Under the pieces are notes generated by a model. It was not told the origin of the DNA. It was given only the letters and a program-made list of their open reading frames with translations, and searched no databases. A stretch of DNA of 64,000 nt from Escherichia coli. Lineage in GTDB: Bacteria > Pseudomonadota > Gammaproteobacteria > Enterobacterales > Enterobacteriaceae. Below are positions 3,399-49,044 of the stretch, piece by piece (within the stretch, counting starts at the first letter, position 1; every line of letters starts with the position of its first letter). A program made the position numbers and the translations under genes. Location of the stretch: the NCBI RefSeq assembly GCF_030013595.1, contig NZ_CP122768.1; one strand, written 5' to 3'.

Positions 3399-4241
3399 TC
3401 AATGAACGGTATCGAGCAGCTTTAACAGCTCAGGGAATCGGGATTCGAAGAAATGCGGCTGTGTCTCGCGCGGATTTGCGGGACTGGTGATGTTCTTGCC
3501 GAACATGCAACCTTTCGCTGTCAGCGACCAGAATTTTTTGATGTTGTTAATCGCTGTACGGCTGTATCGTTCGCGCTGCTCGACGATCCCCAGTTTCACC
3601 ATCTGGTGATATGCCTGATTAGCCGTCAGGCGTATACCATACTGTTTCAGCAGTGCACTCAGTGACAGTGTCGGGCGACTTGAGCCATCGTGTGCATCAG
3701 CAGGAGCATCAATGGCATAGCGCGGTGCCAGATTCGGTAAGCCAACAGCCTCCTGGAGTTTCTGACAGGCACCAAGCACTGAAGAGTTAGACAGGTTTAA
3801 CTCCCGGCGCATAAAGTCCAGCAGGATCACGCCAGCCTGCATCTTGTCAGCAGCCTGTCCGGATAATTTTTCCGGTGCGCTGGTTACCATATCGAAAGTA
3901 CGGATCACCTTCAGATGGAATGACGGGCTGATCCACATTGCATAGGCATACACCAGTTCCTTGCAGACATACGTTCCCCGTTCATTTCCCCCATGAATCA
4001 CACTCACCGGGTCAACACCCAAATTCTGGGTGTTGGTCAATTCATGAACAAGCTCAACAGTTTGTTGGCTGGAAAGAAACTTTCCCGGCTCCTTGGTTCT
4101 GGCATTTGCACCAGATGCTACTGCTGCGCGATGCAGATCGTTCAGGCTGTAACGCCCATAAGCATCACGACGAACTTCAATACCATCAATGACCATCAGA
4201 TTATTCATACTTCGTTTCTCCTCTTGATCAGGCGGCTGCAC
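3399..4241 (-). CDS. KilA-N domain protein / putative phage antirepressor
   Basis: 280 aa; N-terminal KilA-N-like segment MVIDGIEVRRDAYGRYSLNDLHRAA; start may be the internal Met at 4208. Confidence 0.5.
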   Translation of the reverse strand: MQPPDQEEKRSMNNLMVIDGIEVRRDAYGRYSLNDLHRAAVASGANARTKEPGKFLSSQQTVELVHELTNTQNLGVDPVSVIHGGNERGTYVCKELVYAYAMWISPSFHLKVIRTFDMVTSAPEKLSGQAADKMQAGVILLDFMRRELNLSNSSVLGACQKLQEAVGLPNLAPRYAIDAPADAHDGSSRPTLSLSALLKQYGIRLTANQAYHQMVKLGIVEQRERYSRTAINNIKKFWSLTAKGCMFGKNITSPANPRETQPHFFESRFPELLKLLDTVH

Positions 4242-5590: not shown

Positions 5591-6084
5591 TAAGCCCCCA
5601 CGTAATTCCCTGACAGATACCACTCTTCACCCGATGCAGCGCGCTTGCTGCTTTTCCGTAAACACCGCTCACGACGCGCAAGAAAATTGTTTCGCTCTTG
5701 CTGGGAGTGGCTTTCACGGAATGCCGCCATCCACACCGTTGCAGCACGACGGTATAAGCCCCTGGACTCCAGTTCTTCCGCCTGGCGGGTCAGGCACAAA
5801 ATAACCCGGGGATCGTTAGTGCCGACATAGAAATTGCGCACAGGTCTGGATTCACGAACTGGTTGCGGTTCCGGCTCCTGCGGTATCTCAGTCAGCCGCG
5901 GGAAATGTCTGCGTGTATCCCCTTCACAACGGTGAGCCACACGCCCACTCTGACGTAACTTGCTTGCTGACTGCAGAACGCGCTGTCGTGAGTAACCTGC
6001 AAAAGCATCCGCAATGTCTCCGGAAGTACACCCCGGATGGGCTTCAATGAATTTCTGAACGTCATTCAAAAGACTCATGATCAC
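5590..6084 (-). CDS. Hypothetical phage protein in replication module
   Basis: 164 aa, translationally coupled to the replication gene upstream and the methyltransferase downstream. Confidence 0.45.
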   Translation of the reverse strand: MIMSLLNDVQKFIEAHPGCTSGDIADAFAGYSRQRVLQSASKLRQSGRVAHRCEGDTRRHFPRLTEIPQEPEPQPVRESRPVRNFYVGTNDPRVILCLTRQAEELESRGLYRRAATVWMAAFRESHSQQERNNFLARRERCLRKSSKRAASGEEWYLSGNYVGA

Positions 6085-7022
6085 CCCCTGAATCCTGCCG
6101 GGATCTGGCTGTAGTCCACGTTGTCGTAACTGGCTTTGAAGTACGGGTCTTCGCGTTTTTCGGTGTACGTGCTGACGGACGGCGATAAGCGCAGGGAAAG
6201 CTCATCCCATTTTTCCCGCAGCTTCGACGGGCTGAGCACGTTACGGCACCAGAACGGATCGCGACTGACGCGGCTGTACATCTCGCAGATTTGTTTATGA
6301 GTACGACCATCCTGCACACACATCAGGCGAATTTCGTTTGCCCAGGCTGTCCAGTTCGGTTCTTTGGGACGAACCACCTCGCCGTCACATTCGGCGGCAT
6401 GCTCGTACAGGGCGATGATTTTTTTCCAGAGCCACTGTGCGCAGGTCAAATCATCCTGCGTCCCCCACTGGCGCTTTTTAGGGCTGAATACAACCGCATC
6501 AGGATGGCGAGTTAAAAAATCCTGTTCAGCCGTCTGCGTGTCCGGTTGCGAAGAGTCCGGACGAGAAGGTTTTTTATCTGACGGATCATGTTTTGATTTT
6601 ACTGACGGATCCCCGCCAGATTCTGACGGGTGAAAACCCGCTTTTTTGCCAGATTTCGACGCATCAAATTTTGACGGGTCAGATTTTGATGCGTCAGATT
6701 TTGACGGGTCAGAATCTGACAGTTGAGAAAATGCCGCTGCCTGAAGCTTCGCAACGTTAAGCTGATAAACATTCGACGCATTGCGGTTACCCTGGCGACG
6801 CGCCTTACGCGTTAACCAGCCTTCTGCTTCCAGCCGTGCGATAGCCGTTCTGACGGTACTCATCCCCGCGCCAATCTGGCGGGCAATGGTTTCAATCGAT
6901 GGCCAGCACACACCTTCGTCATTACTGAAATCAGCCAGGCGGGCCATAATTGCCACGCTGGATAATTTCATGCCTGACGCTGCGCAACCATCCCATACAT
7001 AGCCGGTTAATTTAGTGCTCAT
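6081..7022 (-). CDS. Putative phage replication initiation protein (N-terminal wHTH, O-like role)
   Basis: 313 aa; HTH segment CWPSIETIARQIGAGMSTVRTAIARLEAEGWL; repetitive SDPSKSDASK linker encoded by internal iterons. Confidence 0.55.
   Translation of the reverse strand: MSTKLTGYVWDGCAASGMKLSSVAIMARLADFSNDEGVCWPSIETIARQIGAGMSTVRTAIARLEAEGWLTRKARRQGNRNASNVYQLNVAKLQAAAFSQLSDSDPSKSDASKSDPSKFDASKSGKKAGFHPSESGGDPSVKSKHDPSDKKPSRPDSSQPDTQTAEQDFLTRHPDAVVFSPKKRQWGTQDDLTCAQWLWKKIIALYEHAAECDGEVVRPKEPNWTAWANEIRLMCVQDGRTHKQICEMYSRVSRDPFWCRNVLSPSKLREKWDELSLRLSPSVSTYTEKREDPYFKASYDNVDYSQIPAGFRG
6575..6730. repeat. Iteron array (putative prophage ori) inside the replication gene
   Basis: About 8 tandem copies of a TGACGG(A/G)TC-like unit (tctgacggatc, actgacggatc, tctgacgggtg, ttgacgggtc x2, ttgatgcgtc) followed by an A/T-rich stretch. 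Confidence 0.55.
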
Positions 7023-7031
7023 GACCGACCT

Positions 7032-7370
7032 CTATTTCCCTGAATTTACGACGAAACTGTTCGAGCGGACTGAAGCACTCATGCTCATAGCCTTCGCGGA
7101 GGTAGATAACCCGTTGTGTTTCCGGTTCCCAACGAATGACTCTGACGGGCACTCCGTAGTGATCTTTGAACCAGCGGTTAACTTGTCGCAAAGGACTGTC
7201 TCCTTCTGCCGGTTGAAATCCCCCACAGCCCACTCTGCAAAGCTGTGGGTTACAATTTCCCTGTCACCTGGTACATTCACTGCATAGCAATATTCCACCT
7301 TCGCTTTTCCACCCGGTACAGGAAGCGCAATCAGTTGCGAGCGACGGTAGTGTGTTGTTAAACTGTTCAT
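7032..7370 (-). CDS. YmfM-like e14-type phage protein
   Basis: 112 aa; 4-nt overlap with the upstream CII-like gene; C-terminal half overlaps an alternative-frame ORF (7012..7233). Confidence 0.45.
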
Positions 7371-7936
7371 GCGTTAGTTTCTCCACAACCAGAAGCAATC
7401 GACGCCACGACGCCCGGAGCTGCACACTCGCGGGCGTCATTACTTTCTGAAATGCAAAAGATTTTGTAGACCAGTGCTGCATGCTCCTGCAGCTTCGAAA
7501 TTGAGAGATACAGCTCGTCGTTAATTGCTGTCTTCTCATGCGGTTCCACTACACCGTCTTCGATTGCTGAACGAATCTGTTTTGAATAACTGCCGATCTG
7601 TTCAATGACTTCCAGCAGACGCTGGTTAATATCGGCGTTGTCCACATCCTCGACGTCAGGAAGCGACACAAAGACGCCATTTGCAGACTGCGCCACAGCA
7701 TCAGCAATGAAGTGAGTGCCACCAGCACGCTGTAAAACCATTGCCCATCCCAGCGGGAAAATCTGATCGCCATCTGCACGAAGGCGGTTGAATAAAGCGT
7801 TTTCTGTTACATCGAGCCAGTCAGCCGCTTCAGCGTAACCACCCGGCAACGCCGCGATAGTTTTTCTGACAGCTTTCACGTACCACTCAGGCTGTTTTTC
7901 TATTTTCCAGTGATGCTTACCCACGATTAGCCTCAT
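7367..7936 (-). CDS. YmfL-like / CII-type phage regulatory protein
   Basis: 189 aa, directly downstream of cro in the rightward operon. Confidence 0.55.
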
Positions 7937-7967
7937 CGTTCTGTGGTTAAAAATTGAAAGTGTTCTG

Positions 7968-8168
7968 CTAATCTTTCGGATAGATATCCGGTCTTAAGTC
8001 AGATTTCGTAATTGCACCTGACGTGCATTGCTCAAGTTTTTTAGCCAGCACAAAACTGGCTTTTTTATAGCCATTGAAAACCAGCCGTAAGTAGCCAGGA
8101 GTTGAGCCAACTTTTCCGGCCAACTCGCCCTGCTGTTCTTTGGTTAAAGAGTCCCAATACGCTTTCAT
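7968..8168 (-). CDS. Cro-like repressor
   Basis: 66 aa MKAYWDSLTKEQQGELAGKVGSTPGYLRLVFNGYKKASF... with HTH; GGAG SD; divergent from cI; ORF track's 167 aa is an upstream extension. Confidence 0.65.
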   Translation of the reverse strand: MKAYWDSLTKEQQGELAGKVGSTPGYLRLVFNGYKKASFVLAKKLEQCTSGAITKSDLRPDIYPKD

Positions 8169-8222
8169 ACAATATGTACCTCCGGTGTACATATTACATG
8201 ATTGAAATGAACCTTCAAGACA

Positions 8223-8243
8223 CTTGTACCTTAACGGTACAAG
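8223..8243. promoter_or_regulatory. Putative OR operator palindrome between cro and cI
   Basis: cttgtacc-ttaa-cggtacaag inverted repeat; further TGTAC half-sites at 8175 and 8186. Confidence 0.45.
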
Positions 8244-8258
8244 GGTTTTAATTTCGTT

Positions 8259-8933
8259 ATGAAAACAATCCATGACATCCGGCGGTCTAACGCCCGAAAA
8301 CTGAGAGATGGTGTTGGAGGGAATTCTTCCTTTGCCACTATGATTGATCGCGAGCCAACCCAGACCAGCAGGTTTATGGGAGATGGTGCTACTAAAAATA
8401 TCGGTGACAGCATGGCACGACACATCGAAAAATGTTTCGACCTGCCTGTCGGATGGCTCGATCAAGAACACCAGACAACGAACATCACAAAAAAACCTGA
8501 TGTTTCAATCACTAATAAACAAATCACATTAGTCCCTGTCATATCATGGGTACAGGCCGGAGCATGGAAAGAAGTTGGATATTCTGAGGTTGATTTGAGC
8601 ACAGCAGAAACGTATCCCTGCCCTGTACCCTGTGGGGAAATGACTTATATCTTGCGGGTGATAGGTGATTCAATGATTGATGAGTACCGCCCGGGAGACA
8701 TGATTTTTGTCGATCCTGAAGTACCTGCCTGCCACGGTGACGACGTTATTGCATTGATGCACGATACAGGTGAAACCACCTTCAAAAGGTTGATAGAAGA
8801 TGGGACACAGCGTTATCTCAAAGCGTTAAACCCAAACTGGCCTGAGCCTTACATTAAGATCAACGGTAATTGCTCTATAATTGGAACTGTGATTTTCTCA
8901 GGAAAACCAAGAAGATACAAAATCAAAGCCTAA
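8259..8933 (+). CDS. CI-like prophage repressor (HTH plus S24 LexA-like peptidase), CohE-like
   Basis: 224 aa; C-terminal S24 region ...VIGDSMIDEYRPGDMIFVDPEV...; divergent from cro. Confidence 0.8.
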   Translation: MKTIHDIRRSNARKLRDGVGGNSSFATMIDREPTQTSRFMGDGATKNIGDSMARHIEKCFDLPVGWLDQEHQTTNITKKPDVSITNKQITLVPVISWVQAGAWKEVGYSEVDLSTAETYPCPVPCGEMTYILRVIGDSMIDEYRPGDMIFVDPEVPACHGDDVIALMHDTGETTFKRLIEDGTQRYLKALNPNWPEPYIKINGNCSIIGTVIFSGKPRRYKIKA

Positions 8934-8946
8934 TCAATGTTTATGA

Positions 8947-8968
8947 ACCTGCTTCGGCAGGTTTTTTT
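8947..8968 (+). terminator. Rho-independent terminator after the cI-like gene
   Basis: acctgc-ttcg-gcaggt hairpin followed by tttttt. Confidence 0.6.
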
Positions 8969-8972
8969 ATAC

Positions 8973-9000
8973 TTGACAATGTACCCACGAGATACATAAT
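8973..9000 (+). promoter_or_regulatory. Putative pL-like sigma70 promoter with operator repeats
   Basis: TTGACA (8973-8978), 16-bp spacer, CATAAT (8995-9000); direct repeats atgtacccacgaga / atgtacccaagaga share the TGTACC operator half-site. Confidence 0.45.
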
Positions 9001-9081
9001 GTACCCAAGAGAAACAACAAACAGGCAGGACGCCCACGAAGTAGCCGCCTGGGGCATATGAAGTCCAGGATGATTCGTTAG

Positions 9082-9110
9082 CAACAAAAAAGCGCCCTAC
9101 AGGACGCTTA
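9082..9110 (-). terminator. Rho-independent terminator for the minus-strand moron
   Basis: On the minus strand: agcgtcc-tgta-gggcgct hairpin followed by tttttgttg, 38 nt past the stop at 9148. Confidence 0.45.
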
Positions 9111-9147
9111 GCTCTTTAACAATCTGGATATCCACAACAGTAGTAAT

Positions 9148-9639
9148 CTACAGATTGCCGTTAAGTTTTCTGGACAACTCCTCAATGGATGGAGGCGATA
9201 CGTAATCCGGATTTTTATTCATCAGAAACTTATTTTCACAGTGGAGGCACCTGCTTTTATGAAAAAGCTCATCTTCGCTAACCGGGAATGGTTGAAGTAT
9301 CGATACTATCTTTTGTCCAAAACATTTTGGGCAAAGATGCATGGTTATGCTGCCACCGTTCACGATTACCTCCTTCGAGTATACAAAAGTACCCGACTCA
9401 AGTTGGTTAAGGATATAGCCTTCCGTCTGAGCCTCAAAGTTTTCGAATTCTGCAATTTTAGCTTTGAGAGAAGCATTTATTTCTTGATAAGAGCCCACCA
9501 GTTCAACGAGAGACACGCATTCGCGCTGAATAGACGCAAGCTTTGAGTTCAGCTCACCAATAGCCGCATTTACTTCAGCTTGAGTTTTTGCCTCGTTCAT
9601 TAGTTTTGCAATCTGGGCTGTTTCACGAATAGCCGTCAT
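9148..9639 (-). CDS. Hypothetical coiled-coil / C4 zinc-ribbon protein (moron between cI and early-left operon)
   Basis: 163 aa from Met at 9639; N-terminal coiled-coil-like region, C-terminal CPKC...(26)...CLHC; opposite to pL transcription; AT-rich; ORF track extends implausibly to 9927. Confidence 0.5.
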   Translation of the reverse strand: MTAIRETAQIAKLMNEAKTQAEVNAAIGELNSKLASIQRECVSLVELVGSYQEINASLKAKIAEFENFEAQTEGYILNQLESGTFVYSKEVIVNGGSITMHLCPKCFGQKIVSILQPFPVSEDELFHKSRCLHCENKFLMNKNPDYVSPPSIEELSRKLNGNL

Positions 9640-9949
9640 TGCTGCCGTTAATTCAGCGATCACATTGAATACTCTTATTGTTGTTGGGGATATCCAGATT
9701 AACCGAATCCTTGTTGTTGGGGAATAACCAGGTCCACCTCGCCTGATGTGGCTAAAAGCAGGCACATAACAGCTAAGTATTTTCAACCAGAGAGAATCCT
9801 TAGCGTTGTGGTGAATGCGGCTCAGCGCACGCGGGTTAAGGTTGAGGCTGACAGTCGACCTTCTGTGGATACCCACCCGCCTGGTGTGCAACCTTCGCCA
9901 GGCACCGGGAGGCACCCGGCACCACAACTTTATGCTGTGTGTAGTCCTG

Positions 9950-14113: not shown

Positions 14114-14190
14114 TGGCGCGCCCTGCAGGATTCGAACCTGCGGCCCACGACTTAGAAGGTCGTTGCTCTATCCAACTGAGCTAAGGGCGC
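14114..14190 (-). tRNA. argU: tRNA-Arg (anticodon UCU), argU
   Basis: Reverse complement GCGCCCTTAGCTCAGTTGGATAGAGCAACGACCTTCTAAGTCGTGGGCCGCAGGTTCGAATCCTGCAGGGCGCGCCA, 77 nt, cloverleaf-compatible. Confidence 0.95.
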
Positions 14191-22922: not shown

Positions 22923-24308
22923 TTACTTACGACGCCAGGTGGTCCCTTGCGGGCCATCTTCCAGCACGATCCCCATCTCGTTAAGACGGTCACGCGCCGC
23001 ATCTGCCGCCGCCCAGTCTTTCGCTTTACGGGCATCCAGACGCTGTTGAATTAACGCTTCAATCTCAGCCACTTCGCTGTCGTCTGCCTGCGCGCCGCTT
23101 TGCAGGAACGCTTCCGGTTCTTGCTCCAGCAGGCCCAATACGGCGGAAAGTTTACGCAGATGAGACGCCATCGCGTTTGCCGCTGCCATATCTTCTGCTT
23201 TCAGACGGTTTACTTCACGCGCCATATCAAACAGTACGGAATAGGCTTCCGGGGTGTTGAAATCGTCGTCCATCGCTTCAATAAAGCGCGCTTCAAACGC
23301 TTCGCCACCCGCAGGCGCAACGGTTTTATCTGTGCCGCGCAGCGCAGTGTAGAGACGCTCCAGCGCCGCACGCGCCTGCTTCAGGTTCTCTTCGCTGTAG
23401 TTCAGCTGGCTGCGATAGTGGCCCGACATCAGGAAATAACGCACGGTTTCCGCGTCGTAGTATTTCAGCACATCGCGCACGGTAAAGAAGTTACCCAGCG
23501 ATTTGGACATCTTCTCGCGGTCAACCATCACCATTCCGGAATGCATCCAGTAGTTCACATACTGACCATCATGGGCACAGGTGGACTGAGCGATTTCGTT
23601 TTCGTGGTGTGGGAACATCAGGTCAGAACCGCCGCCGTGGATATCAAAGTGGTTACCCAGCTGCTTGCAGTTCATTGCCGAACATTCAATGTGCCAGCCT
23701 GGACGGCCCGGGCCCCACGGCGACGGCCAGCTCGGTTCGCCCTCTTTCGACATCTTCCACAGAACGAAATCCATCGGGTTGCGTTTGTCGTCGACCACGT
23801 CAACGCGCGCGCCTGCCTGCAGCTGGTCGAGATCCTGACGCGACAGCACGCCATATGTCGGATCGGTCGGTACGTCAAACATCACGTCGCCGTTGTCCGC
23901 CACATAAGCGTGACCTTTGGCGATCAGTTGTTCAGTGAGTTCAATAATTTCTGCGATATGGTGCGTCGCGCGCGGCTCCATATCCGGGCGCAGAATGTTC
24001 AAAGCATCAAAATCTTTGTGCATTTCGGCGATCATGCGATCCACCAGCGCCACAAAGCTTTCGCCATTTTCATTGGCGCGTTTGATGATTTTGTCGTCGA
24101 TATCAGTAATGTTGCGCACATACTTCAGCTTATAGCCGAGGAAACGCAGATAGCGCGCAACCACGTCAAAGGCAACAAAGGTACGCCCGTGACCGATATG
24201 ACAGAGATCGTAAACGGTGATTCCACACACGTACATGCCGACTTCCCCGGCGTGAATAGGCTTAAATTCCTCTTTTTGGCGTGTCAGAGTATTGAAGATT
24301 TTTAGCAT
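22923..24308 (-). CDS. cysS: Cysteine--tRNA ligase
   Basis: 461 aa with HIGH (CHIGHGR) and KMSKS motifs. Confidence 0.95.
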
Positions 24309-35600: not shown

Positions 35601-35642
35601 GTCATACCACTCGCCTGATTATTTTTAGCTATGTTGGATTTT

Positions 35643-35669
35643 GCCACGGTTTATACCGTGGCTTTTTTT
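35643..35669 (+). terminator. Rho-independent terminator after allE
   Basis: gccacggt-ttat-accgtggc followed by ttttttt. Confidence 0.6.
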
Positions 35670-35684
35670 GCGGTAAATTCAGGT

Positions 35685-48633: not shown

Positions 48634-48695
48634 TGGGCGGTATTCTGAAACGGCGATTGTCGTGAGAACAAAATGGTTGCACCAGAATACAGATA

Positions 48696-48733
48696 TAAAA
48701 AAACCGACATGACAGTCGGTTTTTTTATTTTTT
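48696..48733 (+). terminator. Rho-independent terminator after mnmH
   Basis: aaaaaaaccgacatgacagtcggtttttttatttttt; a degenerate second copy lies at 49174-49203. Confidence 0.6.
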
Positions 48734-49044
48734 CCGCCCAAGACTTGGTGGTTCCGGGCAGAAATGAAACAGTCCTCATCTAGCAAGTGAATTATAAGTC
48801 AGGATGCCTACATATTCAAACAGCTATGTTGGCGATACAATCCCGACGCTAGTAGTGATACTGCCTCAAGGGATTACCGCAGTGCGGAAAAGTACTTTTA
48901 AGTCCTGGTCAGGATACAGGTGGTGCTGATTCTGGTGCTCTAATTTGGAGAGAGGCAGTCCTCATCTAGCACATGAAGAAAATCATAGTTACAGGCAACG
49001 TAAGGGTAAGCTGTGATTGTCTTTCTCCCTTAAGGGAGCAACGG

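What the first reader, a model, noticed from the sequence alone, without database searches (positions are those of the whole stretch)
8170..9015. Shared TGTACC operator half-site at both sides of the cI-like gene
The 90-bp cro-cI intergenic region carries the palindrome cttgtacc-ttaa-cggtacaag plus further TGTAC half-sites. Immediately after the cI terminator, a TTGACA-16bp-CATAAT promoter overlaps two direct repeats atgtacccacgaga / atgtacccaagaga. This fits a CI-type repressor binding OR and OL-like operators with a TGTACC half-site, and fixes the position of pL.
Basis: partly seen in the sequence, partly recalled or inferred. Interest (0 to 1): 0.3.

Follow-up and report, generated by a model that had tools for sequence, protein, structure and literature searches.

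The report
Repressor operators flanking a prophage cI gene
This is the ordinary on/off switch of a lambda-like prophage (the well-known e14/SfV immunity module): one 17-bp repressor binding site recurs at the promoters on both sides of the repressor gene. An undescribed, widely conserved structured RNA begins right after the left promoter.

Summary
The region is the e14/SfV/SfIV immunity module (ymfT/croE, ymfK/cohE), 99.7% identical to copies in over 1,300 complete E. coli genomes.

The real unit is a 17-bp dyad, TGTACC-N5-GGTACA:
- The only two exact copies in 64 kb lie in the 90-bp cro-cI gap (OR1 8175-8191, OR3 8225-8241).
- A degenerate third site (8208-8224) sits between them.
OL1 (8980-8996) lies inside the TTGACA-16-CATAAT promoter and OL2 (9000-9016) starts at the last base of its -10.

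In 15 diverged relatives (repressor DNA-binding domain down to 65% identity) the half-sites and promoter hexamers are fixed while the central 5 bp vary freely. Published dRNA-seq shows e14 ymfK mRNA is leaderless, which places pRM inside OR3. Binding itself is untested. The SfV GenBank record already marks this gap as a "putative operator region".

Found in passing: a 64-nt structured RNA (9016-9079) starts about 10 nt into the pL transcript. It has strong covariation and occurs in more than 120 viral contigs and about 80 Enterobacterales species behind many different repressors. It has no Rfam match and no similarity to HK022 put. A consensus boxA follows it.

The parts
7968..8168 (-). cro-like gene (ymfT/croE, 66 aa, YdaS-type helix-turn-helix)
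   Evidence: ORF and start codon. Annotated ymfT in E. coli genomes and cro in SfV. Pfam YdaS_toxin/HTH_3 (both below the curated cut-off) and PHROG 35 'transcriptional repressor'.
8175..8191 (.). OR1: exact dyad TGTACCTCCGGTGTACA. It overlaps the last base of the pR -10, the predicted pR start site and the cro Shine-Dalgarno sequence (GGAGG, 8183-8179).
   Evidence: The site sits at -798 relative to pL in all 16 relatives that hold the OR region, and only the central bases vary.
8191..8218 (-). Predicted pR: -35 TTGAAG (8218-8213), 16-bp spacer, -10 TAATAT (8196-8191)
   Evidence: Read from the sequence. It scores 8/12, below the scanner's threshold. The hexamers keep their place in Hafnia yong2 and Edwardsiella EPP-1. 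The start site is inferred, not mapped.
8208..8224 (.). Candidate OR2: degenerate dyad TGAACCTTCAAGACACT (4 of 12 half-site positions mismatched). It overlaps the pR -35 and is centred at -43 from the pRM start site.
   Evidence: PWM rank 11 in the window. Diverged relatives carry TGAACC-N5-GGTACT, only 2 of 12 mismatched, at the same place. Tentative.
8225..8241 (.). OR3: exact dyad TGTACCTTAACGGTACA (core of the 21-bp palindrome 8223-8243). It covers the pRM -35 and spacer and is centred at -26.
   Evidence: The central 5 bp differ in nearly every relative (TTAAC, CTATC, AACGC, AATTT, ATAGG, ACTGA, AGCAA, TTTGA) while the arms stay fixed.
8224..8259 (+). pRM: -35 TTGTAC (8224-8229), 17-bp spacer, -10 TTTAAT (8247-8252), start at A8259 of the cI ATG (leaderless mRNA)
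   Evidence: Geometry. A -10-like hexamer 6 nt (5-7 in EPP-1) before the ATG, with no Shine-Dalgarno sequence, is conserved in relatives. dRNA-seq in K-12 lists ymfK TSS RVS_(I)-1202156 with leader length 0 (PMC4681348). The e14 sequence is identical here.
8259..8933 (+). cI-like repressor (ymfK/cohE, 224 aa): N-terminal DNA-binding domain plus C-terminal S24 self-cleaving domain (Ala100-Gly101, Ser138, Lys176 read from the sequence)
   Evidence: Pfam Peptidase_S24 at 1.5e-26. The C-terminal domain matches lambda CI structures. Residues 1-74 match the SPC32H Rep N-terminal domain, PDB 5d50, at E 6e-4. PHROG 4 'transcriptional repressor'.
8945..8972 (+). Intrinsic terminator of cI (GAACCTGCTTCGGCAGGTT plus a T-run)
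   Evidence: Annotated as a terminator in SfV and Ayreon.
8973..9000 (+). pL: TTGACA, 16-bp spacer, CATAAT (11/12). Predicted start site near A9007.
   Evidence: Both hexamers are invariant in all 15 distinct relatives. Annotated 'promoter' in phage Ayreon. The start site is inferred.
8980..8996 (.). OL1: TGTACCCACGAGATACA (1 mismatch), filling the pL spacer
   Evidence: It is a perfect dyad TGTACC-N5-GGTACA in EPP-1, L030, L059, L088 and L091.
9000..9016 (.). OL2: TGTACCCAAGAGAAACA (2 mismatches), running from the last base of the -10 to about +10
   Evidence: It is conserved as TGTACC-N5-GAAACA, and is GATACA in EPP-1. It lies 20 bp centre-to-centre from OL1.
9016..9079 (+). P1 pairs 9016-9021 with 9074-9079, P2 pairs 9024-9026 with 9032-9034, P3 pairs 9048-9052 with 9065-9069. 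The invariant core is AGGCAGGACGCCCACGAAGUAGC.
9111..9122 (+). GCTCTTTAACAA: a match to the rrn-type boxA consensus in the pL leader, directly after hairpin 9090-9109
   Evidence: Sequence. GCTCTT[TA]A occurs within 400 nt downstream of the motif in 23 of 163 unique loci (median 32 nt), against 0 of 163 upstream and 3 of 163 on the opposite strand. The boxA consensus is from established knowledge.

Best explanation
This is the immunity switch of an e14/SfV-type lambdoid prophage, integrated at a tRNA-Arg gene.

The repressor (YmfK/CohE) most likely binds as a dimer to 17-bp dyads with consensus TGTACC-N5-GGTACA.
- At OR, OR1 covers the edge of the pR -10, the pR start site and the cro ribosome binding site.
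- A weak OR2 covers the pR -35.
- OR3 covers the -35 and spacer of pRM, which makes a leaderless cI mRNA.
- At OL, directly after the cI terminator, OL1 fills the pL spacer and OL2 covers the pL start site. The two lie 20 bp apart, about two helical turns.

In the lysogen, occupied sites occlude pR and pL. SOS-induced self-cleavage at Ala100-Gly101 would release them. The small Cro-like YmfT probably uses the same sites.

Shown here: the sites, their placement relative to the promoters, their conservation pattern, and (from the literature) the leaderless pRM start. Inferred: who binds, affinity order, cooperativity, and the pR and pL start sites.
For: - The module is 99-99.7% identical to ymfK/ymfT/ymfL in E. 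coli genomes and about 98-99% identical to SfV/SfIV cI/cro.
- The only exact dyads in 64 kb lie in the cro-cI gap, and the only 1-mismatch site lies inside pL. Exact sites are expected 0.06 times.
- In 17 loci (about 220 kb) the sites always fall at -798, -748 and +7 from pL, with 4 strays.
- Across 15 distinct variants, with the repressor N-terminal domain 65-100% identical, half-sites and promoter hexamers are fixed and the central 5 bp are free. Arms never change in a compensatory way. That fits protein recognition, not a hairpin.
- The repressor has an S24 domain like lambda CI and an N-terminal domain like the SPC32H Rep DNA-binding domain.
- ymfK mRNA is leaderless in K-12.
- SfV's depositors marked window-equivalent 8174-8242 as a 'putative operator region', and Ayreon's marked 8972-8999 as a promoter.
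Against: - No binding, footprint or reporter data were found for YmfK or YmfT in the papers I could reach. The e14 and SfV genome papers are not held.
- The best-consensus site (OR3) overlaps pRM. In lambda (established knowledge) the pRM-overlapping site is the weakest, so the regulatory logic may differ.
- OR2 is poor in this window (4 of 12 mismatches) and abuts OR3 (17 bp centre-to-centre), an unusual geometry.
- The Pfam scan found no helix-turn-helix domain in residues 1-90.
- No pL start site was found in the part of the K-12 TSS supplement that is held. That is expected for a repressed promoter, so it is uninformative.
Confidence: 0.85

Rival explanations
1. The dyads are recognised mainly by the Cro-like YmfT or another prophage helix-turn-helix protein, and the S24 repressor uses a different, unrecognised site.
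For: Cro proteins share operators with CI in lambdoid phages (established knowledge). Sequence alone cannot tell which protein reads a site. The strongest site (OR3) is where lambda Cro binds first.
Against: The same dyads sit on pL, 0.8 kb away and downstream of cI. Those sites must be repressed in the lysogen, when only cI is expressed. No alternative repeated motif is shared by the two regions.
Confidence: 0.07
2. The 21-bp palindrome at 8223-8243 works as an RNA hairpin or terminator rather than as a protein site.
For: The terminator scan lists it: 8-bp stem, 5-nt loop, followed by GGTTTTAATT.
Against: The arms are invariant, with no compensatory changes, in 15 variants. The same half-sites occur in imperfect dyads that would make poor hairpins (OL1, OL2). 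It lies inside the pRM core promoter, upstream of the mapped leaderless start site, so the cI mRNA does not contain it.
Confidence: 0.03
3. The promoter at 8973-9000 is not the early-left operon promoter. It drives only a short leader RNA or a local accessory transcript, because the next gene (9148-9663) is convergent.
For: A convergent gene with its own strong terminator (9109-9090, minus strand) lies 150 bp downstream. The hairpin could stop some plus-strand transcripts.
Against: The same promoter and operators precede directly co-oriented early genes in e14 (ymfJ), SfV (orf33), yong2 and EPP-1. In this prophage the co-oriented yfdP-yfdQ-yfdR-yfdT-intD block follows. On the plus strand the hairpin lacks a proper T-run (one search finds no terminator-like site there).
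Confidence: 0.1
4. The clustering of TGTAC motifs is chance in AT-rich promoter DNA.
For: TGTACC alone is not significantly enriched in the window. Three sites at up to 1 mismatch is within the shuffle range.
Against: Placement is exact and conserved at three fixed offsets in 17 loci, while the intervening bases diverge.
Confidence: 0.01

Closest known systems
Immunity region of cryptic prophage e14 (ymfK/cohE, ymfT/croE) and of Shigella phages SfV/SfIV
   Same: Same module. e14 has identical OR1 and OR3 and the same pRM, pL and OL2. DNA identity is 99-99.7% in E. coli genomes and about 98-99% in SfV/SfIV. SfV's record marks the same gap as a putative operator region.
   Different: Only the free positions differ. 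The OL1 spacer is CCACGAG here, CTTTGAG in e14 and CCATGAG in SfV. One base differs in OR2. The DNA after the leader RNA also differs: a convergent accessory gene here, ymfJ in e14, orf33 in SfV.
Phage lambda OR/OL with the CI and Cro switch
   Same: Divergent pR and pRM with three sites in one short gap. A leaderless cI mRNA. A repressor with an S24 self-cleaving C-terminal domain. An operator-covered pL downstream of, and co-oriented with, cI (lambda facts from established knowledge).
   Different: - Unrelated operator sequence (TGTACC-N5-GGTACA).
- Two, not three, OL sites.
- Site spacing of 33 and 17 bp at OR, against 24 and 23 bp in lambda.
- The best-consensus site overlaps pRM.
- pL follows the cI terminator directly, with no rexAB.
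- No N gene or nut site of the lambda type. SfV, SfII and SfIV are reported to lack N, cII and cIII (PMC3851460).
Salmonella phage SPC32H repressor Rep (PDB 5d50)
   Same: Residues 1-74 of YmfK align end to end with the Rep N-terminal domain (E 6e-4).
   Different: The similarity is weak, and only the N-terminal domain is shared in this search. I did not compare operator sequences.
HK022 putL antiterminator RNA (for the leader RNA noticed at 9016-9079)
   Same: A structured RNA of about 65-70 nt beginning a few nucleotides into the pL transcript of a lambdoid phage that has no N protein (PMC9378689).
   Different: - The covariance model of the new motif does not hit HK022 putL or putR even with filters off.
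- The architecture differs: a closing helix plus two hairpins, against two long stem-loops.
- There is no second copy in the pR operon.
- Only short strings (CGAAC.GGC, GGAUGA) are shared.

Membership tests
Lambda-type CI repressor with OR/OL operator system | Repressor with a C-terminal S24 (LexA/CI) self-cleaving domain carrying an Ala-Gly site and a Ser/Lys dyad | tested here: met
   Pfam PF00717 at 1.5e-26. Matches to lambda CI C-terminal domain structures. Ala100-Gly101, Ser138 (GDSM) and Lys176 (FKRL) read from the translation.
Lambda-type CI repressor with OR/OL operator system | N-terminal helix-turn-helix DNA-binding domain | tested here: inconclusive
   No Pfam helix-turn-helix hit. 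Residues 1-74 match the N-terminal domains of phage repressors 5d50 (E 6e-4) and 7nkv (E 0.047), and PHROG 12107 'transcriptional repressor'. No structure was predicted.
Lambda-type CI repressor with OR/OL operator system | Divergent cro and cI genes with repeated dyad operators overlapping pR and pRM | tested here: met
Lambda-type CI repressor with OR/OL operator system | A second operator cluster of the same sequence overlapping an outward early promoter (pL) | tested here: met
   OL1 and OL2 overlap TTGACA-16-CATAAT (OL1 fills the spacer; OL2 runs downstream from the last base of the -10). The arrangement is conserved in 15 variants.
Lambda-type CI repressor with OR/OL operator system | Maintenance promoter producing cI mRNA (leaderless in lambda) | tested here: met
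   Literature TSS for e14 ymfK with a leader of 0 nt. The sequence is identical in the window.
Lambda-type CI repressor with OR/OL operator system | Sequence-specific binding of the repressor to the operators, and repression in vivo | not testable with these tools
   No experimental data found.
e14/SfV immunity group | Near-identical repressor, Cro and operator DNA | tested here: met
   99-99.7% DNA identity in E. coli genomes (ymfK, ymfT, ymfL), about 98-99% to SfV/SfIV, and identical repressor N-terminal domain in e14.
HK022 put RNA family (for the leader RNA at 9016-9079) | Sequence and structure similarity to putL/putR (two stem-loops) | tested here: not met
   The covariance model, run without filters on the HK022 immunity region, gives only noise (5 bits or less). 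The covariation-supported architecture differs.
HK022 put RNA family (for the leader RNA at 9016-9079) | Located just downstream of pL | tested here: met
   The -10 of a sigma-70-type promoter most often ends 13-24 nt before P1 in the 126 distinct loci scored, which carry many different operator sets.
HK022 put RNA family (for the leader RNA at 9016-9079) | A second copy downstream of pR | tested here: not met
   No second hit in the window or in any locus.
HK022 put RNA family (for the leader RNA at 9016-9079) | Promotes terminator read-through in cis through the RNA polymerase beta-prime zinc-binding domain | not testable with these tools
   Needs reporter or in vitro transcription assays.
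Rfam families (any) | Covariance-model match to 9016-9079 | tested here: not met
   No match at gathering threshold in the window, and none at E up to 5 on the plus strand of 7300-9300.

The most novel reading that the evidence does not exclude
The 64-nt RNA at 9016-9079, transcribed from about +10 of pL, may be a new class of cis-acting elongation-control RNA. It could be a functional analogue of HK022 put, possibly working with the consensus boxA at 9111-9122. That would explain how the many lambdoid phages that lack N read through terminators in their early-left operons.

The evidence shows a real, strongly constrained structured RNA:
- 94% of cells are paired, against 71.5% in shuffles and 43% or less when partners are slid.
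- A 23-nt core is invariant.
- It sits at the 5' end of pL transcripts, behind many unrelated repressors and ahead of unrelated first genes.
- It is not in Rfam 15.

Its function is not shown.
Probability: 0.3. Interest if true: 0.75.

Novelty: already known. Interest (0 to 1): 0.3.

Why it matters
For the finding itself, not much. It gives a precise operator consensus (TGTACC-N5-GGTACA) and a promoter map for an immunity module carried by about 40% of complete E. coli genomes. That is useful for annotating e14/SfV-type prophages, predicting superinfection immunity groups, and designing YmfK-controlled promoters.

The by-product matters more. The conserved pL leader RNA is a concrete, testable candidate for a question still posed in 2025 (PMC12315714): how lambdoid phages without N achieve early antitermination.

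Tried and rejected
**Literature**
- The e14 paper (PMC331406 and its DOI), the SfV paper (my guess at its PMC id, PMC134923) and King 2011 on put-like RNAs (PMC3187212; an earlier guessed DOI also failed) are not held. I could not see whether the TGTACC consensus or the OL sites were already spelled out.
- Searches on ymfK, cohE/croE and SfV operators found no binding data.
- A pL start site was sought in the K-12 TSS supplement and not found.

**Alternatives for the operators**
- LexA box: the spacing is TGT-N11-ACA, against LexA's CTGT-N8-ACAG (established knowledge). Rejected by inspection.
- Hairpin or terminator reading of OR3: rejected because the arms are invariant and never change in a compensatory way.

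**The leader RNA**
- Rfam at gathering and permissive thresholds gave nothing.
- Homology to HK022 putL/putR by BLAST and covariance model gave none.
- A second copy in the pR operon or elsewhere was not found. The one weak hit, 23048-23100 at 14.8 bits, I take to be noise.
- A stand-alone sRNA with its own terminator is unlikely: 0 of 99 loci have a terminator within 60 nt.
- A gene-specific leader is unlikely: the first downstream ORFs fall into 51 clusters among 103 loci.
- Extra pairings or a pseudoknot were sought by mutual information and none emerged beyond P1 and P3.
- Single-sequence folding is uninformative (z = -0.34).
- Matches of the 22-nt core in Delftia, Pandoraea, Rhizobium, Streptomyces and similar genomes fall in GC-rich sequence, apparently coding, and lack P1 and P3. 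They are not the motif.
Full report
**1. What is there**

Window 7968-9016 holds a divergent gene pair. A 66-aa Cro-like gene lies on the minus strand (ATG 8168-8166). A 224-aa repressor gene lies on the plus strand (8259-8933). The gap between them is 90 bp.

Megablast shows this is the e14/SfV/SfIV immunity module:
- It is 99.6% identical to phage PhiR29 and about 98-99% identical to SfIV and SfV.
- It is 99.7% identical to chromosomal copies annotated ymfK, ymfT and ymfL. 2,170 of 5,426 complete E. coli genomes have a match, and 1,315 cover at least 80% of the query.

In a near-identical genome the prophage ends at intD next to a tRNA-Arg and fimZ. The co-oriented genes after the repressor are yfdP, yfdQ, yfdR, yfdT and intD. 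The tRNA is at 14117-14190 in the window.

The repressor has an S24 self-cleaving domain (Pfam, 1.5e-26) that matches lambda CI C-terminal structures. Its first 74 residues align with the N-terminal domain of the SPC32H repressor, PDB 5d50 (E 6e-4).

**2. The observation**

The recurring unit is better described as a 17-bp dyad.
- TGTAC-N7-GTACA occurs exactly twice in 64 kb, at 8175-8191 and 8225-8241. By base composition it is expected 0.06 times.
- The only 1-mismatch copy is 8980-8996, inside the promoter after cI.
- A 2-mismatch copy follows at 9000-9016.

TTGACA-16-CATAAT (8973-9000) scores 11/12 and directly follows the cI terminator at 8945-8964.

**3. Phylogenetic footprint**

I collected 17 loci with this immunity type. 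They are e14, SfV, Ayreon, Hafnia phage yong2, Edwardsiella phage EPP-1, IMG/VR contigs (one of which, L022, is SfV itself) and the window, about 220 kb in all.
- In every locus, sites with up to 1 mismatch fall at -798, -748 and +7 relative to the pL -35. Only four such sites lie elsewhere.
- Among 15 distinct variants, the repressor N-terminal domain ranges from 100% to 65% identity. The half-sites TGTACC/GGTACA and the TTGACA and CATAAT hexamers are invariant or nearly so.
- The central five bases differ almost everywhere. OR3 shows TTAAC, CTATC, AACGC, AATTT, ATAGG, ACTGA, AGCAA and TTTGA. OL1 shows CACGA, TTTGA, ATTGA, CATGC, CTCAA, TTGAC and CCAAA.
- OL1 is a perfect dyad in five of the diverged relatives, and OL2 improves to GATACA in EPP-1.

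Fixed arms with a free centre and no compensatory arm changes are the signature of a dimeric DNA-binding protein. They are not the signature of an RNA hairpin, although the terminator scan flags 8223-8243.

A third OR site lies between the two strong ones. It is TGAACC-N5-GGTACT in the diverged relatives and degraded to TGAACCTTCAAGACACT (8208-8224) here. I treat it as tentative.

**4. Promoter geometry**

- pRM: dRNA-seq in K-12 lists ymfK among only five leaderless E. coli mRNAs, with the start site on the A of the ATG (PMC4681348). The e14 sequence is identical to the window here. This fixes pRM as -35 TTGTAC (8224-8229), 17 bp, -10 TTTAAT (8247-8252), +1 at A8259. A -10-like hexamer 6 nt (5-7 in EPP-1) before the ATG is conserved in the relatives. 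Relative to the pRM start, OR3 is therefore centred at -26 (occluding), the weak OR2 at -43 and OR1 at -76.
- pR (inferred): TTGAAG (8218-8213), 16 bp, TAATAT (8196-8191). OR1 covers the last base of its -10, the predicted start site and the cro Shine-Dalgarno sequence.
- pL: OL1 fills the spacer and OL2 covers the start region. Their centres are 20 bp apart.

The layout parallels lambda (established knowledge), with differences. There are two OL sites, the OR spacings are 33 and 17 bp, and the site closest to consensus is the one on pRM.

**5. Prior knowledge**

The SfV GenBank record annotates 'putative operator region' at the equivalent of window 8174-8242, exactly from dyad to dyad. The Ayreon record annotates a promoter at the equivalent of 8972-8999. 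I found no experimental binding data, and the e14 and SfV genome papers are not in the library.

The finding is therefore a correct reading of an already recognised module. What I add is the explicit consensus, the two OL dyads, the weak OR2 and the pRM placement.

**6. Noticed while fixing pL: a conserved leader RNA**

*Where it occurs.* A sensitive BLAST showed that window 9013-9080 is 80-98% identical in many phages whose repressors and operators are unrelated. These include SfII, phiNP, Pantoea AH07, Yersinia YeP1-3, Pectobacterium ZF40, ST64B, mEp237, mEp460, SPN3UB, SEN34 and Klebsiella phages. The block is unannotated in most of these records; a few carry a 'hypothetical protein' call over it. 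In most of the annotated loci it lies 100-200 bp after the stop of a repressor-like gene, on the same strand.

*Structure.*
- In an alignment of 16 sequences, RNAalifold and my hand-drawn structure agree. There is a closing helix P1, an invariant 3-bp hairpin P2 with loop AGGAC, and a 5-bp helix P3. An invariant stretch joins them.
- On 62 distinct sequences, 94.1% of cells are paired, against 71.5% in column shuffles and 43% or less when partners are slid. There are 194 double-change cells.
- P1 switches wholesale among GCGAA/UUCGC, CCACC/GGUGG and CAUC/GAUG.
- Mutual information recovers only P1 and P3.

It also found 95 loci in species-representative genomes. The covariance model scores 80 of these as genuine (54-95 bits). 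All 80 are Enterobacterales, apart from one record labelled Chryseobacterium, which is probably contamination. The rest are the core 22-mer occurring in GC-rich genomes, apparently inside coding sequence.

*Context.*
- A sigma-70-type promoter's -10 most often ends 13-24 nt before P1, across many operator types.
- No terminator follows within 60 nt in any of 99 loci, and the first ORF starts a median of 64 nt downstream.
- The first ORFs fall into 51 clusters among 103 loci.

So this is a 5' leader element of pL operons, independent of both the repressor and the first gene.

*Relation to known families.*
- It has no Rfam 15 match.
- It has no relation to HK022 putL or putR detectable by covariance model.
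- It has no second copy in the pR operon.

*boxA.* In this window the leader RNA is followed by a hairpin (9090-9109) and then GCTCTTTAACAA (9111-9122), the rrn-type boxA consensus (established knowledge). A boxA-like string occurs within 400 nt downstream in 23 of 163 unique loci (median 32 nt). It occurs in 0 of 163 upstream regions and 3 of 163 on the opposite strand.

*Possible function.* SfV, SfII and SfIV are reported to lack N (PMC3851460). [quoted passage not shown] A role in transcription elongation is my leading guess (about 0.3). A protein-binding or stability leader is the main alternative, and the motif has two GGA-containing elements. Function is not shown.

**7. Verdict**

The module is already known, so interest in the finding itself is low. 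The leader RNA just outside the interval deserves its own follow-up.

Noticed in passing
window 9016-9079 (+): A 64-nt structured RNA motif at the 5' end of the pL transcript. It has covarying helices P1 and P3 and an invariant core, AGGCAGGACGCCCACGAAGUAGC. It occurs in at least 120 IMG/VR contigs and in loci from about 80 Enterobacterales species genomes, behind many unrelated repressors. It has no Rfam match, no similarity to HK022 put, and occurs once per phage.
   Followed up: yes
window 9090-9122 (+): A hairpin AAGCGCCC-TACA-GGACGCTT is followed after one base by GCTCTTTAACAA, the rrn-type boxA consensus, 31 nt after the leader motif. boxA-like strings are enriched downstream of the motif (23 of 163 loci, against 0 upstream). 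Read on the minus strand, the same hairpin is the terminator of the convergent gene.
   Followed up: partly
window 9148-9663 (-): A convergent 171-aa gene sits between the pL leader and the early-left genes. It has its own strong terminator, no Pfam domain, and matches PHROG 1244 (unknown function). It appears to recur in some other phages, judged from the conserved terminator hairpin after the leader motif, and looks like an accessory gene cassette (moron). pL transcription would run antisense through it.
   Followed up: partly
window 6650-6713, inside the replication gene 6081-7022 (-): A tandem array of 4.3 copies of a 15-bp unit (CAGATTTTGACGGGT) lies inside the O-like replication-initiator gene. 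It resembles the iterons of a lambda-type origin embedded in gene O.
   Followed up: no
L002 (Ayreon) about 3650-3700 and L008 (SfII) about 1440-1490: A second conserved non-coding block, GGTTG(C/T)AACACGG(T/C)G..ATG..GTCGT(A/T)AGC(A/G)GTC. It lies in the Ayreon pL leader in place of the RNA motif, and in SfII just upstream of the motif. It is unexplained.
   Followed up: no
window 14117-14190 (-), 35607-35673 (-), 48695-48783 (-): Rfam hits outside the prophage: a tRNA gene (annotated tRNA-Arg in a near-identical genome) at the prophage end next to the integrase (likely the attachment site), sRNA STnc480, and antisense RNA AgrB.
   Followed up: no
L143, L158, L159, L171, L176, L193, L198, L201 and similar loci: The 22-nt core GGCAGGAAGCCCACGAAGTAGC also occurs exactly in several GC-rich alpha- and beta-proteobacterial genomes, in a stretch that is conserved among them and looks like a protein-coding gene. 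These copies lack P1 and P3 and are a coincidence, not the RNA motif.
   Followed up: partly
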